Of a stretch of 48,225 nt of DNA, positions 2,796 through 48,225 are shown in pieces. Location: the NCBI GenBank assembly GCA_043818275.1, contig JBDRFY010000036.1:1-48225 (forward strand), in the 5' to 3' direction. The position numbers were made by a program, and so were the translations under genes. The number at the start of each line of letters is the position of its first letter. The first letter of the stretch is position 1. This DNA is from a bacterium. Lineage in GTDB: Bacteria > Babelota > Babeliae > Babelales > JAUWHS01. The notes below the pieces were generated by a model. It searched no databases, was not told the origin of the DNA, and saw nothing but the letters and a program-made list of their open reading frames with translations.

Positions 2796-2810
2796 AATTT
2801 GCAGGGTTAC

Positions 2811-3260
2811 ATGAGTCATACATATTCAAGTATTTTTTTTCATATAGTTTGGTCAACTAAAAATCGCTTACCAAAGATAACAGATGTTTTTAAAGAAAAG
2901 TTATATGGTTATATTGGTGGAATTATTAAAAATGAAAGATGTGAACTTCTTGTAATTGGTGGCATGTCAGACCACATTCATATTCTGGTTCGAATTCCAG
3001 CTCAATATTCGGTTGCTAATTTAGTTTGCAAAATTAAATCTAATTCTTCTAAATTTATTAATCAATCTCATTCACAAATGAAATTTTTATGGCAAGCAGG
3101 TTATGGGGTATTTTCCGTAAGTTTATCAAAAGTTAATGTTGTAAAAAATTATATCATTAATCAGGAAATTCATCTCAAAAAATATTCCTTTATGGATGAA
3201 TTTTTAAAATTATTGAATAAACATGAAATTGAGCATGACAAAAAATATTTATTTAAATAA
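2811..3260 (+). CDS. tnpA: IS200/IS605-superfamily Y1 HUH transposase (TnpA/RAYT-like)
   Basis: FHIVWSTKNR, DHIH (HUH), WQAGY, catalytic YIxNQ; ATG at 2811 gives a typical MSHTYS start; no tnpB adjacent. Confidence 0.9.
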   Translation: MSHTYSSIFFHIVWSTKNRLPKITDVFKEKLYGYIGGIIKNERCELLVIGGMSDHIHILVRIPAQYSVANLVCKIKSNSSKFINQSHSQMKFLWQAGYGVFSVSLSKVNVVKNYIINQEIHLKKYSFMDEFLKLLNKHEIEHDKKYLFK

Positions 3261-38495: not shown

Positions 38496-40322
38496 ATGAA
38501 AATGAAAAAAATTTTATTGACCGTTGTTGTCGCGGCAGTTTCTTTTGGCAACGCAGTTTTTGCTTTTGATTACGACATGGATGAAATGAATGAGAATGAA
38601 AAAGTCGCGTGGTTCTGGACAAAAAAAGACGAAGATAAAGCAAAAGTAAAACAGGAAAAAAAAGAAAAAAAACAAACTGCAAAAGCAGAAAAGAAAGCGG
38701 AAAAAACAAAAGAGAAAAAGACAAAAAAAGTTCAAAAAGAAAAGAAGAAAGAGAAAAAACAAAAGAAACAGGAAGTTAAAAAAGAAAAGAAAGTAGAAAA
38801 GAAACAAGTTAAAAAGGTAAAAAAAGAGAAAAAGAAAGAGGCAAAAGTAGAAAAAGGCGAAACTTGCCCACTTAAATATACCGATGAAGACGCCGTTGAT
38901 AAGTATGTGGCAATCTGGGAAGAAGATTTAGCCAATTATCAAAGCGATTCCAGAACGCAACGCAATAATCTGATTGCCGCCTGGAAACAAAATCGCAAAA
39001 TGGCAGTTGATAAAGAATATACCGATGGAAAATACGCCGATTTATATAAACTTCCAACCTGGCCATTCGAAGCATTATTTGCGGAACATAGTTCATTATT
39101 AAACGTAAAAGAAGTATTTACGTATCAAACATCCGCTTACGGATCAAATGGAACAAAATTTGATTTATCAAAAAACATTTTTGGCGAAGATCCTGTAAGA
39201 TTGCGTGATATTTTGCTTGCATTTAAATTGATCGCAAATTGTGTGGTTGATGATAATAATTTAGACGATATTCTTTCTTATGGAAGTATTCTTTCTCTGG
39301 GATGGTTGCCAGAAAACGATTATATTAATTTAATAGCAGAATCTGATGAATATAGAACTTCAATTAATTATTCCCGTTATATTGTAGATGATCAGGTTTT
39401 AATTGGTTTTGAAATTCCTGTTGTTTATAAAAAACATTATTTAAAAACCTCTTTTTATAAATATGAATTAGGTAAAGATGAGCATCATACAGCTTTAAAT
39501 TTATTTTTGGTCGAAGGCTCTTTTCAAACAGCGTTTGAAAAAGTTCTCAATTTAAAAGATCTCAACTACAATCAAAAACACAGTGTTACCGGCCTTGGCG
39601 ACATTAATTTATTTATGAATTGCAACATTAGATCCAGATTCTTTGAAAAAGCAAATTGGGGATTCAAGCTTCAACTTCCAACATCAAAAGATCCTGACAA
39701 AACAAAACTTTGGGCTCCGGAATTGGGTGAAGAATTTGTTAAATTTTCGTTGCACGCGGCTATGCTTTGGGGAATCAGGGATTGGTTTAATCCTCACTTT
39801 TTAATTCAGGGAACTTATGCCGCAAGCGCCAATGTTGACAGAAGAATTCCACGCAAAATTAAGCATACCGCTTCAGCAACCCATGATGCGGATTTTAAAG
39901 CTGACGATATGTTGCTTGGTCAATATGTTAAAGAAAATGAACATTCAACATTTGCCGAATGGGATACAACTGTAAAAGGTATGGCTGATGAATCAAGGAA
40001 AGTTTCGCTGCAACCTGGACCGGAAATATTTGTAAGAATCGGCAACATTTTTGAAAAAGTATTATTCCGCCGCGCGTTCCTTGATCTTTACTACGATTTC
40101 AGAGCAAAATTTGAAGACAGCGCTTCAGGATTGGCGGAAGATGATTACAACTTAAGATTAATCGAACAGGGAACAAATCAGATTGAAAATAATATCGGGT
40201 TGAATTTAAGTTATCAGTTTGATTATCATACAAGATTGCAACTTGGCGGCAGATACGGTTTTGCCGGACGCAATGTTCCTCAAAATATGCAACTTTCATG
40301 TAATCTTGGCATAGAATTTTAA
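38496..40322 (+). CDS. Putative outer-membrane beta-barrel protein with Lys/Glu-rich low-complexity N-terminal region
   Basis: Signal peptide ending AVFA, ~80-aa K/E-rich tract, amphipathic strands and terminal ..CNLGIEF beta-signal-like Phe. Confidence 0.65.
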   Translation: MKMKKILLTVVVAAVSFGNAVFAFDYDMDEMNENEKVAWFWTKKDEDKAKVKQEKKEKKQTAKAEKKAEKTKEKKTKKVQKEKKKEKKQKKQEVKKEKKVEKKQVKKVKKEKKKEAKVEKGETCPLKYTDEDAVDKYVAIWEEDLANYQSDSRTQRNNLIAAWKQNRKMAVDKEYTDGKYADLYKLPTWPFEALFAEHSSLLNVKEVFTYQTSAYGSNGTKFDLSKNIFGEDPVRLRDILLAFKLIANCVVDDNNLDDILSYGSILSLGWLPENDYINLIAESDEYRTSINYSRYIVDDQVLIGFEIPVVYKKHYLKTSFYKYELGKDEHHTALNLFLVEGSFQTAFEKVLNLKDLNYNQKHSVTGLGDINLFMNCNIRSRFFEKANWGFKLQLPTSKDPDKTKLWAPELGEEFVKFSLHAAMLWGIRDWFNPHFLIQGTYAASANVDRRIPRKIKHTASATHDADFKADDMLLGQYVKENEHSTFAEWDTTVKGMADESRKVSLQPGPEIFVRIGNIFEKVLFRRAFLDLYYDFRAKFEDSASGLAEDDYNLRLIEQGTNQIENNIGLNLSYQFDYHTRLQLGGRYGFAGRNVPQNMQLSCNLGIEF

Positions 40323-41643: not shown

Positions 41644-41791
41644 TAATGTTTTTTTTGAAAAGGTTATTAAAAATTATTAAAAAATAAGGTTAATGCTTTT
41701 TTTAATAATTTTTTGAAAAATAAATCAGTTAATGTATGCTTTATATCTTATTAATCATAAAAAAATAAAAATTTTGGGGTGTGGTTTTTCA

Positions 41792-44560
41792 ATGGGAAAA
41801 GATTCTATAAAAATTACTGGCGCAAAAGAACATAATCTGAAATCTATAAATGTGGAAATTCCAAAAGAAAAATTGGTTGTAATTACCGGGCCGTCCGGTT
41901 CCGGTAAAAGTTCGCTTGCGCTTGATACTCTTTATGCCGAGGGAAAGAGAAGGTATGTCGAATCATTGTCTTCATACGCGCGACAATTTTTGGGTATTGC
42001 AAAAAAACCAAATGTTGAAAAAATTGATGGACTTTGCCCAGCAATTGCGATTGAGCAAAAAACTGTTGGATATAATCCAAGATCAACTGTTGGAACAATT
42101 ACCGAAATTTACGATTACTTACGAGTTCTTTACGCAAGAATTGGTATTCCTCATTGTCCGGAGTGTGGCCAGGAAATAAGCGCGCAATCTCCTGATAGTA
42201 TGACGGAAATGATTTTGCAAAAGTTTACAAATAAACTTGTAACAATTGTTGCTCCAATTGCTATTCAAAAAAAAGGTGAATTCGCAGTTCAGTTAAAAAA
42301 AATATTTGAAGATGGTTTTTACCGCTTTTTAATTGATGGAAAAAATTACCGGTTTGAAAATTTAAAACAAATTGAAGAACTGGATTTATTTAAAACATAT
42401 AAACATGATATTTATGTTTTGATTGATAATTTTAAAATTGAAAAAGAAGAAGCTGCGCGTTTGCAGGAAGCGATTGAAAAAGCTTTTAAACTTAGCGGTG
42501 GGCTGTGCGGGGTGTTGTCTGATGATATAAAAAAACCGATATTGTATTCCTCGCTTCGAGTTTGCCTGAAATGTGTTCGATCTTTTCCGGAACTTGAACC
42601 ACGATTTTTTTCTTTTAATTCTCCGATCGGCGCTTGTCCAAATTGTCATGGTCTTGGTTTTATTCAGGAATGGCCTTGGGAAAAAAGTGATCCAAATTAT
42701 TGGAAAACAAAATATCCGGATCATTTTGGAAGATACGCGAAAGAGACAAAATGTGAATATTGTGATGGAAAAAGATTGCGGGAAGAAGCTCTTTGCGTAA
42801 CGGTTGGAAATAAAAATATTTATGATGCAACAACTTTATCAATAAAAGAGACGTTACATTTTTTTGAAGATTTGTATTACAATTCTGATCATGATTTTAA
42901 ACAGGTTAACTCTATTCGGAAAAACCCTTCGAGACATGAAATTTTTCGCTCTGCTCATAATTTAACTCCTCAGGGCGAACGGCAGAGTGATTGTGATCTA
43001 AAAAATTTTAAAAATAAAAAAACCGTTCGCCCTGAGGAGCGTGACAAAACTTTAGATTTGGAGCGCGTCTCGAAGGGTTATTCCGAATTATTATCTTCTG
43101 AGCATTATAAAATTGCTGAAACATTGTTACGTGAAATTATTAGCAGATTAACTTTTTTAAATAATGTTGGTCTTTCTTATTTAACGTTGTCCAGAACAGC
43201 AAGAACATTATCTGGTGGTGAAGGGCAACGAATTCGTTTAGCCACACAAATTGGTTCTTCTTTAAGTGGAGTTTTATATATTCTTGATGAACCAAGTATC
43301 GGTTTGCATCAACGTGATAATGACAGACTTATAAAAACTTTAAAACTTTTGCGTGATCAGGGAAATACCGTTTTAGTTGTTGAACATGATATGGATACAA
43401 TCAGACAGGCAGATTATCTGGTTGATATGGGACCGGCGGCAGGTATTTTGGGTGGTCAAATAACAGCGGTAGGTGTTCCTCATGTTGTTGCTCAAAATAA
43501 AAATTCATTAACCGGAAATTATCTTTCGGGCGAAAAAAAAATAGAAATTCCTGAGCACAGAAGAAAACCGTATAATTTTTTACAAATTAAAAATGCAACA
43601 GCAAATAATTTAAAAAATGTTGATGTTGATATTCCGCTTGGTGTTTTTGTTGCGGTTAGTGGAGTTTCCGGATCGGGAAAAAGTAGTCTTGTTATGCAAA
43701 CATTGGCTCCAACTTTGCAAAATTATTTCAGTAAAGGTTATGCAATTTCTCCTTATCTTGATGAATTAATAGGTGTTAATCTGTTAAAAAATTTTGTAGT
43801 TGTTGATCAGAGTCCAATCGGAAGAACTCCAAGATCAAATCCAGCAACTTACCTTGGAATTTTTGATGAAATTAGAGCTCTTTACGCAAGTTTGCCCGAA
43901 AGTAAGGCGAGAGGTTATGCCCAGGGACGGTTTAGTTTTAACGTTCGCGAGGGCAGATGTCACAAATGTGATGGGGATGGAATAATAAAAGTATCAATGC
44001 ATTTTCTTGAAGATGTCGAAATGGTTTGCAAAATGTGTAATGGTCAGCGTTATGATCAGCAAACATTGCAAATTAAATTTAAAAATAAAAATATCGCGGA
44101 CATTTTGGATATGACTGTTTACGAAGCGGTTGATTTTTTTGCGGCCTATCCAAGAATAAAAAAACGTTTGGATTTGTTGTGTGAAGTTGGTCTTGATTAC
44201 ATAAAACTTGGCCAATCAGCAAAAACATTTTCCGGTGGAGAAGCGCAACGCATAAAACTTGTTAACGAACTTGCAAAACGCGGAAAAAATACAATTTATA
44301 TTCTGGATGAACCTACAACCGGTTTGCATTCCGATGATGTTAAAAAGTTGTTGCAGGTGTTAAATAAACTTGTTGACAGAGATAATACAGTGTTGATTAT
44401 TGAACATAATCTGGATGTTTTAAAATCAGCAGATTACATTATTGATATTGGTCCTGAAGGCGGTGATGAAGGCGGTTTTATTATTTGCGCGGGACGTCCG
44501 GAAAAAATTGCAAAAAATAAAGATAGTCATACGGGAAAATATTTAAAAACCGTTTTGTAA
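41792..44560 (+). CDS. uvrA: Excinuclease ABC subunit A with in-frame palindromic insert and shortened insertion domain
   Basis: GAKEHNLK, GPSGSGKSSL, LSGGEGQRIRLA, LDEPSIGLH, GVSGSGKS, FSGGEAQRIKL, zinc fingers. Confidence 0.96.
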   Translation: MGKDSIKITGAKEHNLKSINVEIPKEKLVVITGPSGSGKSSLALDTLYAEGKRRYVESLSSYARQFLGIAKKPNVEKIDGLCPAIAIEQKTVGYNPRSTVGTITEIYDYLRVLYARIGIPHCPECGQEISAQSPDSMTEMILQKFTNKLVTIVAPIAIQKKGEFAVQLKKIFEDGFYRFLIDGKNYRFENLKQIEELDLFKTYKHDIYVLIDNFKIEKEEAARLQEAIEKAFKLSGGLCGVLSDDIKKPILYSSLRVCLKCVRSFPELEPRFFSFNSPIGACPNCHGLGFIQEWPWEKSDPNYWKTKYPDHFGRYAKETKCEYCDGKRLREEALCVTVGNKNIYDATTLSIKETLHFFEDLYYNSDHDFKQVNSIRKNPSRHEIFRSAHNLTPQGERQSDCDLKNFKNKKTVRPEERDKTLDLERVSKGYSELLSSEHYKIAETLLREIISRLTFLNNVGLSYLTLSRTARTLSGGEGQRIRLATQIGSSLSGVLYILDEPSIGLHQRDNDRLIKTLKLLRDQGNTVLVVEHDMDTIRQADYLVDMGPAAGILGGQITAVGVPHVVAQNKNSLTGNYLSGEKKIEIPEHRRKPYNFLQIKNATANNLKNVDVDIPLGVFVAVSGVSGSGKSSLVMQTLAPTLQNYFSKGYAISPYLDELIGVNLLKNFVVVDQSPIGRTPRSNPATYLGIFDEIRALYASLPESKARGYAQGRFSFNVREGRCHKCDGDGIIKVSMHFLEDVEMVCKMCNGQRYDQQTLQIKFKNKNIADILDMTVYEAVDFFAAYPRIKKRLDLLCEVGLDYIKLGQSAKTFSGGEAQRIKLVNELAKRGKNTIYILDEPTTGLHSDDVKKLLQVLNKLVDRDNTVLIIEHNLDVLKSADYIIDIGPEGGDEGGFIICAGRPEKIAKNKDSHTGKYLKTVL
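42914..43088. repeat. Palindromic element inserted in frame inside uvrA
   Basis: Outer IR 42914-42935/43067-43088 (21/22) and inner IR 42966-42982/43023-43039 (17/17). Confidence 0.9.
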
Positions 44561-44623: not shown

Positions 44624-44820
44624 AACCCTGGTAAGGGTTATAGTTAATAGCTTCGGGTTTTAACCCGTGGTATTGATAAAGAATATATTGCCACCCCATT
44701 TTATGGAGGTGGCAGAAATTAAAAAAATTCTTTCGTACCATAAAATGGCACGATATTATGTGATTAAATTCTAAACCACGGGTTAAAACCCGAGGCTATT
44801 AACTTTAGCCCCAAAGGGGC
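44624..44820. mobile_element. Non-autonomous REPIN/MITE-like doublet (two inverted arms)
   Basis: IR 44642-44671/44775-44804 (29/30), terminal hairpins aaccct-ggta-agggtt and gcccc-aaa-ggggc, central ccattttatgg/ccataaaatgg. Confidence 0.8.
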
Positions 44821-44878: not shown

Positions 44879-45199
44879 ATGATTTCAAAAAAACTAATAA
44901 CCGAAATTAAAGAAAAATTGGTTTCCGTTTATGATCCGTTAGAGATTTATCTGTTTGGCTCATATGTCTGGGGTAATCCAGATGAAGAAAGCGATTTGGA
45001 TTTTTTGATAGTTGTTTCTGAATCTAATGAAAAAAGTTACAAACGAGCTATTCCTGCAAGTTATGCATTAAAAAAGATTTTGGCTCCTGTTGATATTATT
45101 GTATATACCAAAGAAGAATTTGATTATAAATTGAAGCAAAAATCAACTCTTTGTTTTAAGATTCAAAATGACGGCAAAAAGCTTTACGCCAGATCATAA
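44879..45199 (+). CDS. Minimal nucleotidyltransferase (MNT, Pol-beta superfamily)
   Basis: IYLFGS..G..ESDLDFLIV, VDIIV, 106 aa. Confidence 0.88.
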   Translation: MISKKLITEIKEKLVSVYDPLEIYLFGSYVWGNPDEESDLDFLIVVSESNEKSYKRAIPASYALKKILAPVDIIVYTKEEFDYKLKQKSTLCFKIQNDGKKLYARS

Positions 45200-45256: not shown

Positions 45257-45283
45257 CCGCTCATCCTGAGCGAAGTCGAAGGG
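45257..45283 (+). repeat. Compact copy of the uvrA-insert repeat family
   Basis: ccgctcatcctgag-cgaag-tcgaaggg vs uvrA right arm ccgttcgccctgag..tcgaaggg. Confidence 0.65.
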
Positions 45284-48042: not shown

Positions 48043-48225
48043 TTTGACAAGCCCTGAAAGGGCGGCTTTTGTTAGCCCAGGGTAAGAAAATTCTTGTCCG
48101 CCGAAGTACCGCTATTTGCGGTACGAAGGTGGATAATTTTCGCAACCCTGGGAAAAAGATTAAAATAAAAATTTAGCCCCGTAGGGGCGGCACATAAAAA
48201 TGATTTTGAAAATTTATGTGCCGCC
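48043..48225 (+). mobile_element. REPIN-like element of the transposase-flanking family, truncated by window end, with nested hairpin
   Basis: gacaagccctgaaagggcg identical to 2688-2706; gttagcccag..gcaaccctggg; agccccgtaggggcgg; inverted half begins (ggcggcacataaa/tttatgtgccgcc). Confidence 0.85.

What the first reader, a model, noticed from the sequence alone, without database searches (positions are those of the whole stretch)
42914..43088. Palindromic selfish element translated in frame inside UvrA
Seen: two nested inverted repeats, attcggaaaaacccttcgagac/gtctcgaagggttattccgaat (21/22) and ctcctcagggcgaacgg/ccgttcgccctgaggag (17/17), form a ~175-nt rod inside uvrA without breaking the frame. 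They account for most of ~60 extra residues (..IRKNPSRHE..TPQGERQ..TVRPEERD..RVSKGYSE..) between FFEDL and the IAETLLREI helix, where UvrA normally has only a short linker. Known: in-frame palindromic inserts in conserved proteins are described for Rickettsia palindromic elements and a few other host-associated lineages. Inference: a similar system that creates protein sequence from repeats operates here with its own repeat family; a compact intergenic relative lies at 45257.
Basis: partly seen in the sequence, partly recalled or inferred. Interest (0 to 1): 0.85.

Follow-up and report, generated by a model that had tools for sequence, protein, structure and literature searches.

The report
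Selfish hairpin pair inside UvrA loop
Two mirror-image copies of a short hairpin repeat that is scattered through this bacterium's genome sit in frame inside the DNA-repair gene uvrA and add 68 codons that likely form a harmless floppy loop; the same loop has been lengthened by repeats in three related bacteria, and the repeat is likely spread by a small nuclease whose gene it brackets.

Summary
Confirmed. Both inverted repeats are present, and the insert is 204 nt (42884-43087, 68 codons, stop-free only in the uvrA frame) relative to the same-genus ortholog. The host is a Dependentiae/Babeliales genome. The 175-nt rod is not the mobile unit. It is two inverted copies of a 25-60 nt hairpin, of which the genome holds 107; 35 lie in 30 ORFs, five of six tested with clean empty sites in relatives. 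Genes are under-used (33% against 80% expected). uvrA is under purifying selection (dN/dS 0.10) and the insert is predicted disordered. The same linker carries one unit-like peptide in a more distant relative and a different repeat in two other genomes. The unit brackets small GIY-YIG nuclease genes here and in several phyla, in a group apart from those flanked by the published Ssn motif; mobilisation is inferred. Intragenic REP dimers in uvrA are published (PMC3733652), and this scan noted the family earlier in glmS, ppd and the nuclease cassette. No reads cover the insert.

The parts
41732..44560 (+). uvrA ORF, 942 aa from the first ATG (922 aa as called in the protein collection); Walker, signature and zinc-cysteine motifs present; only full uvrA found in the genome
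   Evidence: dN/dS 0.10 against G001 over 847 codons
42884..43087 (+). 204-nt in-frame insert (residues 385-452), boundaries +/-3 nt against the same-genus ortholog
   Evidence: stop-free in the uvrA frame, 3-12 stops in each of the other five frames
42884..42913 (+). AT-rich left part of the insert (30% GC); partly resembles the flank of a family copy on contig C27; also holds an 11/13 direct match to the right host flank that is not significant
   Evidence: 81% over 48 nt to C27; null P = 0.06
42914..42935 (+). outer left arm: family 5' extension plus the CCCTTCGAGAC half of unit 1
42925..42982 (+). hairpin unit 1, same strand as uvrA, with a decayed 30-nt loop; encodes residues 398-417
42983..43022 (+). 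40-nt AT-rich spacer (17.5% GC) between the two units; the end loop of the rod
43023..43077 (-). hairpin unit 2, opposite strand; encodes residues 431-449; closest copy on contig C89 (87.7% over 57 nt); a matching peptide sits at the same site in protein P0002
43067..43088 (-). outer right arm (unit 2 half plus family extension)
45257..45283 (-). single minimal unit of the same family, intergenic

Best explanation
The uvrA gene carries a 204-base in-frame insert built from two inverted copies of a 25-60 base hairpin repeat that is dispersed through the genome; the copies likely arrived as separate single-unit insertions, were likely copied by the small GIY-YIG nuclease whose gene the same hairpins bracket, and are likely tolerated because they lengthen a linker that is predicted to be a disordered surface loop of a working UvrA. 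Shown: the anatomy, the family census, the empty sites, the nuclease association and selection on uvrA. Inferred steps: (1) the nuclease recognises and nicks the hairpin in single-stranded DNA, by analogy with SsnA; (2) host repair then pastes a unit, with some AT-rich flank, at a new place; (3) selection removes most copies that land in genes and keeps stop-free, frame-preserving ones in loops; (4) the long rod is a by-product of two copies facing each other. Odds: real repeat-derived in-frame insert 0.9; translated into a functional UvrA 0.8; two separate unit events 0.65; GIY-YIG as mobiliser 0.55.
For: Empty site: none of 29 orthologs aligned has the insert. Of the 150 rows listed from a search of 261 genomes, 143 have the canonical 216-nt segment. 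Family: 107 units against 0 in each of 3 shuffles; 35 of 107 lie in 30 ORFs of 150 aa or more, among them GluRS, MutL, AlaRS, PheT, Pth, GlmS, LeuRS, iPGM. Unit-sized inserts of about 7-17 aa with clean empty sites in G001 and 3-4 outgroups for 5 of 6 genes tested. Genes are depleted: 35 of 107 against 80% of random windows, p = 9e-27. Open frame: 0.8% of shuffles of the insert and 2.2% of shuffles of its non-arm bases are stop-free. dN/dS 0.10; uvrB and a uvrC-sized GIY-YIG ORF are present. Model: pLDDT under 50 at model residues 376-431 (396-451 in the 942-aa numbering), mean 85.3, and it matches solved UvrA (TM 0.80-0.85 for the top two). Separate events: no full-length copy elsewhere, and the two units have different best matches, C27 and C89; the tags-inward layout is the minority, 6 of 25 close pairs, and this is the only close pair inside one ORF; P0002 carries one unit-like peptide only. 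Nuclease: 2 of 6 small GIY-YIG genes in the genome are bracketed by inverted units, and 0 of 6 Y1 transposase matches have a unit within 600 nt. In the order, 13 of 24 related nuclease loci have units on both sides and 21 of 24 on at least one, against 0 of 6 loci of the other nuclease group. Among GTDB loci at 47% identity or more, 21 of 37 on both sides and 32 of 37 on at least one; 0 of 37 control windows; 0 of 14 low-identity loci. Gene-less dimers in the genome share their ends with the C75 nuclease cassette.
Against: No RNA or proteome data. Low pLDDT also follows from having almost no aligned rows there, so disorder is not proven. Six of 17 repeat-bearing genomes had no nuclease of this group at E <= 1e-15, three of them with 17 or more copies, and 4 of 15 nuclease-bearing genomes had no exact-pattern copy (Fisher p = 0.003, but kin are not independent). 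Eight of the 37 GTDB loci come from one genome. GIY-YIG enzymes cut but are not known to join DNA (own knowledge), and PMC11893778 shows cleavage, not mobilisation. The MutL site was ambiguous. The nuclease clade has weak support (92/72, 86 columns).
Confidence: 0.7

Rival explanations
1. The 175-204 nt rod moved as one REPIN- or MITE-like dimer in a single event.
For: The outer arms agree at 21 of 22 nt, including 8 nt beyond the core. REP dimers are common and some are intragenic (PMC3733652). 17 tags-outward dimers exist in this genome.
Against: No second full copy. The layout is the reverse of the conserved mobile-looking dimers. The 8-nt extension is a general feature of this subfamily. 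P0002 has one unit-like peptide only.
Confidence: 0.12
2. The paired arms are kept because the rod works as an RNA element in uvrA mRNA (a nuclease cleavage site or ribosome pause) that tunes UvrA levels.
For: Strong fold, z = -8.8. The 7 differences between unit 2 and its closest copy all fall between the arms (alignment). PMC3733652 speculates that inserts in repair genes are not fortuitous. The same linker is occupied in four lineages.
Against: The arms are simply the family consensus, so their match needs no selection. Most orthologs have no insert. The other occupied sites hold a single unit or a different repeat and could not form this rod. No covariation test was possible with one sequence.
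Confidence: 0.08
3. Assembly artefact: repeat-mediated misjoin or foreign sequence inside a metagenome contig.
For: Fragmented assembly (92 contigs, 4.2% contamination); no read support could be tested.
Against: Both flanks are collinear with the ortholog and in frame. The loops and spacer are unique, not copies of another locus. An independently assembled protein, seen on 3 contigs, has the same repeat peptide at the same site. 30 ORFs show the same behaviour.
Confidence: 0.04
4. The units are spread by a Y1 (RAYT-like) transposase or by host recombination, and the GIY-YIG gene is a passenger or a guard.
For: Six Y1 transposase matches in the genome. Y1 enzymes are the known REP movers (PMC3733652). 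Some repeat-rich genomes lack a detected nuclease.
Against: No unit lies within 600 nt of any Y1 match, and four of them have other palindromes beside them. The unit-nuclease link holds across phyla.
Confidence: 0.2

Closest known systems
Intragenic GTAG/CGTC REP singles and dimers (Di Nocera et al. 2013, PMC3733652; parts 1-5 of 8 read, figures and supplements not seen)
   Same: Short tagged hairpins, single or paired, mostly intergenic, some in frame in genes. The paper reports REP dimers in uvrA of Thioalkalivibrio and Opitutus terrae and REPs in uvrB of R. conorii.
   Different: The tag reads CCGYTCRY rather than CGTC or GTAG, the stem is bulged with a variable 2-45 nt loop, and there is no CCA tail. 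The pair encodes 68 aa against 20-30 aa for the dimers reported. The paper names no Dependentiae in the parts read and found no enzyme for CGTC repeats.
Rickettsia palindromic elements (RPE; Ogata et al. 2000 and 2002, seen only as summarised in PMC10969869 passages; the 2002 paper was not held)
   Same: Palindromic repeats translated in frame inside housekeeping proteins of a small AT-rich genome; a third of the copies are intragenic here, nearly half there.
   Different: RPE-1 is a single ~150-bp unit with one conserved peptide. Here the unit is 25-60 nt, is read on both strands and in several frames, and the long palindrome is a pair of units. No sequence comparison with RPEs was run.
Ssn nucleases with NTS/SRM hairpins (SsnA, cd10448; Chenal et al. 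2025, PMC11893778; parts 1-2 of 11 and searched passages read)
   Same: A ~90-aa single-domain GIY-YIG gene flanked on both sides by its own hairpin, which is also scattered through the genome; enriched in symbionts.
   Different: The published SRM pattern has 0 hits in this genome. The nucleases beside this unit group apart from a well-supported clade (100/97) whose members lie beside SRM or CGTC-type hairpins. The passages searched do not mention in-frame copies. SsnA itself was not compared.
REPIN / RAYT systems (search listing and abstracts only; described in PMC3733652)
   Same: Inverted hairpin doublets with ~100-nt spacers and an enzyme gene framed by the same hairpins.
   Different: The framed gene is a GIY-YIG nuclease, not a Y1 transposase; no unit lies near the six Y1 matches.

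Membership tests
RPE-like intragenic palindromic repeats (works-like class) | Multi-copy palindromic repeat dispersed in the genome | tested here: met
   107 units against 0 in 3 shuffles
RPE-like intragenic palindromic repeats (works-like class) | In-frame copies in conserved genes with empty sites in orthologs | tested here: met
   uvrA and 5 of 6 other genes tested
RPE-like intragenic palindromic repeats (works-like class) | Host fold preserved, insert in a surface loop | tested here: inconclusive
   Model fits UvrA and the insert has pLDDT under 50, but alignment depth there is near zero
RPE-like intragenic palindromic repeats (works-like class) | Insert retained in mRNA and protein | not testable with these tools
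   No RNA holder listed; indirect support from the open frame
Rickettsia RPE-1 to RPE-10 (membership) | Sequence homology to an RPE family | not tested
   No RPE sequences were fetched; no Rfam family matched the insert
CGTC-tagged REPs | Terminal CGTC (TGTC/CCTC) tag, 8-9 bp stem, 4-5 nt loop, CCA tail | tested here: not met
Locus L051 shows an intermediate form.
Ssn / SRM system | Small single-domain GIY-YIG gene flanked on both sides by the repeat | tested here: met
Ssn / SRM system | Repeat fits the SRM degenerate motif | tested here: not met
   0 hits in the genome
Ssn / SRM system | Nuclease belongs to the cd10448 clade | tested here: inconclusive
   No CDD library here and SsnA not in the tree; groups apart from SRM-flanked proteins with weak support for its own clade
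Ssn / SRM system | Site-specific cleavage of single-stranded DNA at the hairpin | not testable with these tools
   needs biochemistry
REPIN / RAYT | Repeat flanks a Y1 tyrosine transposase gene | tested here: not met
   0 of 6 Y1 matches with a unit within 600 nt
MITE | Whole element multi-copy with terminal inverted repeats and a target-site duplication | tested here: not met
   No second full copy; duplication test inconclusive, 11/13, P = 0.06

The most novel reading that the evidence does not exclude
A clade of small GIY-YIG nucleases, apart from Ssn, mobilises its own hairpin family across many phyla and so writes new loops into proteins. One UvrA linker in Babeliales is a recurrent landing and retention site for unrelated repeat families, where inserts are gained, grow by a second copy and are lost again.
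Probability: 0.35. Interest if true: 0.7.

Novelty: new variant of a known kind. Interest (0 to 1): 0.42.

Why it matters
The event itself is known: repeats in frame in uvrA were published in 2013. Two things add value. First, the repeat has a candidate enzyme in the same genome, whereas in-frame palindromes of the RPE/CGTC type long had none; this makes 'what moves protein-coding palindromes' testable with one 91-aa protein and short oligonucleotides. Second, one linker of UvrA holds a natural series (empty, +3 aa, +13, +32, +40, +71 aa) from at least two repeat families. That series can separate tolerance from targeting in the reported excess of repeats in repair genes, and it marks a site where UvrA likely accepts large inserts.

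Tried and rejected
Read support: one DNA run with a 9% share, no RNA holder listed; laying it gave no cover of most of the insert, so it says nothing either way. A metagenome scan for the right junction found 0. Rfam: no match to the insert. Target-site duplication: not significant. Y1 transposases as partner: no units nearby. SRM motif: no hits. Ten genomes with weak scores for the linker segment were checked for more inserts: none at this linker; some were broken or cut off, and G212 has an insert elsewhere in the segment. NCBIfam gave no family for the nucleases. L152 turned out to be an ordinary UvrA. No complex prediction was run, as no protein-protein binding is claimed. Literature searches for a description of this family in Dependentiae/Babeliales, or of this nuclease-repeat pair, listed nothing on point; I judged most listings by title and abstract start only, and subscription journals are mostly not held.

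Full report
Observation. The window is contig C36 of a 1.33-Mb, 92-contig, 30.8% GC genome. Named homologs of its UvrA are Candidatus Dependentiae / Babeliales. uvrA is one ORF, 41732-44560 (+), above the NCBIfam cut-offs. Both inverted repeats are as described, 21/22 and 17/17, and the region folds far better than shuffles (z = -8.8 as RNA, -8.3 as DNA).

Empty site. None of the 29 orthologs aligned has the insert: 68 extra residues against the same-genus genome G001 and 71 against the other 28. A search of 261 genomes of the order matched 238. Of the 150 rows listed, 143 have the canonical 216-nt segment, five have 222-228 nt, one has 255 nt and one (this genome) is split. 236 further matches were not listed, and inserts lower the score, so inserts are under-counted. 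The insert is 42884-43087 (204 nt, +/-3). It is stop-free only in the uvrA frame; 0.8% of whole shuffles and 2.2% of non-arm shuffles are stop-free. uvrA has dN/dS 0.10 against G001 (847 codons, dS about 1.1). It is the only full uvrA found; uvrB is present, and so is a 567-aa GIY-YIG ORF that I take to be uvrC from its size.

What the rod is made of. It is two copies of one unit, YCCTTCGA-(variable loop)-CTCAGGRYGARCG: unit 1 at 42925-42982 (+) and unit 2 at 43023-43077 (-), with their CCG tags facing inward across a 40-nt AT-rich spacer. A stricter pattern found 76 units; allowing one mismatch per half gave 107, against 0 in each of three block-shuffled genomes. 35 of the 107 lie in 30 ORFs of 150 aa or more, on both strands and in several frames. 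I scanned 21 proteins from 20 fetched regions; Pfam named 17, among them GluRS, MutL, AlaRS, PheT, Pth, GlmS, LeuRS and iPGM. For six of these I aligned G001 and three or four outgroups: five show a unit-sized insert of about 7-17 aa with a clean empty site, and MutL is ambiguous. Random windows fall inside such ORFs 80% of the time, so the units avoid genes (p = 9e-27). Of 25 close pairs, 17 have tags outward, 6 inward and 2 in tandem; the uvrA pair is the only one inside a single ORF. The whole insert has no second copy, and its units have different best matches, on C27 and C89. I infer two separate unit events. A possible target duplication (11/13) is not significant (P = 0.06).

History of the site. 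Protein P0002 (78% identical, one sequence seen on three contigs) has 32 extra residues at the same linker, with a peptide matching unit 2 and the same four-residue distance to the host helix. In the UvrA tree P0002 is outside the pair formed by this protein and the G001 protein (100/99), and G001 keeps three extra residues there. Either unit 2 is ancestral, was lost in G001 and was joined by unit 1 here, or the site was hit twice; G001's clean empty sites in other genes favour recent gains, its three extra residues favour a loss. Without the DNA of P0002 this is open, and its repeat origin rests on the peptide alone. In another family, G149 (+40 aa) and G150 (+13 aa) carry a different repeat at the same linker, in opposite orientations, while G147 of the same genus is empty and G148 has +3 aa. 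That second repeat had 7 hits in seven fetched stretches of those two genomes and none in this genome. The linker has therefore been occupied at least three times independently.

Structure. AlphaFold2 on a 71-row alignment gives mean pLDDT 85.3, with one long low-confidence stretch, model residues 376-431, between two helices. Foldseek returns solved UvrA. The low score is expected for a stretch with almost no aligned rows, so disorder is predicted, not shown.

Candidate mover. Two of six small GIY-YIG genes in the genome are framed by inverted units; none of six Y1 transposase matches has a unit within 600 nt. With a looser pattern (two mismatches in the right half), 13 of 24 related nuclease loci in the order are framed on both sides and 21 of 24 on at least one, against 0 of 6 loci of a second nuclease group; two of those six match the SRM motif and the rest show CGTC-type hairpins by eye. 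Among 55 GTDB loci, 51 had both flanks long enough: of the 37 at 47% identity or more, 21 were framed on both sides and 32 on at least one, with 0 of 37 in control windows and 0 of the 14 below 47%; eight of the 37 are from one genome. They span Pseudomonadota, Nitrospirota and Chloroflexota. Gene-less dimers with 100-110 nt spacers share their ends with the C75 cassette (nine shown, compared by eye). Repeat and nuclease co-occur in 11 of 41 genomes, nuclease alone in 4, repeat alone in 6 (Fisher p = 0.003, kin not independent). G001 has no exact copy and an unframed, partial nuclease match. Mobilisation itself is inferred by analogy with SsnA, which binds and cuts its hairpin as single-stranded DNA; that paper raises mobility only as a hypothesis (PMC11893778).

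Comparison with what is known. PMC3733652 (parts 1-5 of 8 read; figures and supplements not seen, and its table of intragenic copies could bear on novelty) already reports REP dimers in uvrA of Thioalkalivibrio and Opitutus and notes an excess in repair genes. RPEs were seen only through review passages (PMC10969869). The finding works like these. It fails the CGTC description and the SRM motif, so I do not file it as a member of either. Searches listed no description of this family in Dependentiae or of this nuclease-repeat pair. This scan's own earlier notes report the same family in glmS, ppd and the nuclease cassette of this genome, and in-frame hairpins in uvrA in many other genomes. They are unchecked AI notes; I had found the nuclease link before reading them and checked glmS afterwards.

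Verdict. A real, in-frame, repeat-derived insert; a known kind of event in a variant with a candidate GIY-YIG mover and a repeatedly occupied UvrA linker. Not shown: read support, expression, enzyme activity, any function of the new peptide. Interest 0.42.

Noticed in passing
window 41732-44560 (UvrA residues 316-329): This UvrA lacks about 90 residues of the insertion (DNA-binding) domain: residues 316-329 stand against 308-412 of chain 2r6f_A, and PF17755 is absent here and in the Babeliales-like hits P0002-P0019 but present in most 930-960 aa hits. PMC3025350 (passages) reports that E. coli UvrA without this domain loses damage discrimination in global repair more than in transcription-coupled repair. 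The repeat insert is at another site and does not replace it.
   Followed up: partly
window 44635-44676 and 44770-44811: A second palindrome family (42-nt arms, 88%) just downstream of uvrA; the same sequence lies beside the Y1 transposase genes on contigs C59 and C60.
   Followed up: partly
window 2799-3260, with 2685-2727 and 48043-48085: IS200/RAYT-like Y1 transposase framed by its own palindromes, with a related copy at the far end of the window that weakly matches Rfam Acido-Lenti-1 below the gathering score.
   Followed up: no
window 44879-45199: Small nucleotidyltransferase resembling MntA antitoxins, below the cut-off; no partner gene was looked for.
   Followed up: no
window 38617-38854: Lysine/glutamate-rich low-complexity repeat in the 608-aa ORF 38496-40322 of no known family.
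   Followed up: no
G000 C50:67836, C18:26387, C21:10479, C6:11653 (L033-L036): Four further small GIY-YIG genes of a separate clade, without this unit; by eye several lie just downstream of tRNA-like sequence and other hairpins.
   Followed up: no
L267 (G212) and UvrA frames of G024, G040, G022, G038, G056 (907-981 aa): Other Babeliales UvrA frames are longer than usual; G212 has a 22-aa insert in the neighbouring beta-hairpin. The others were not examined for repeat inserts.
   Followed up: no
L241 (G171:C69): Two inverted partial copies of the same uvrA segment face each other on one short contig, possibly an assembly artefact.
   Followed up: no
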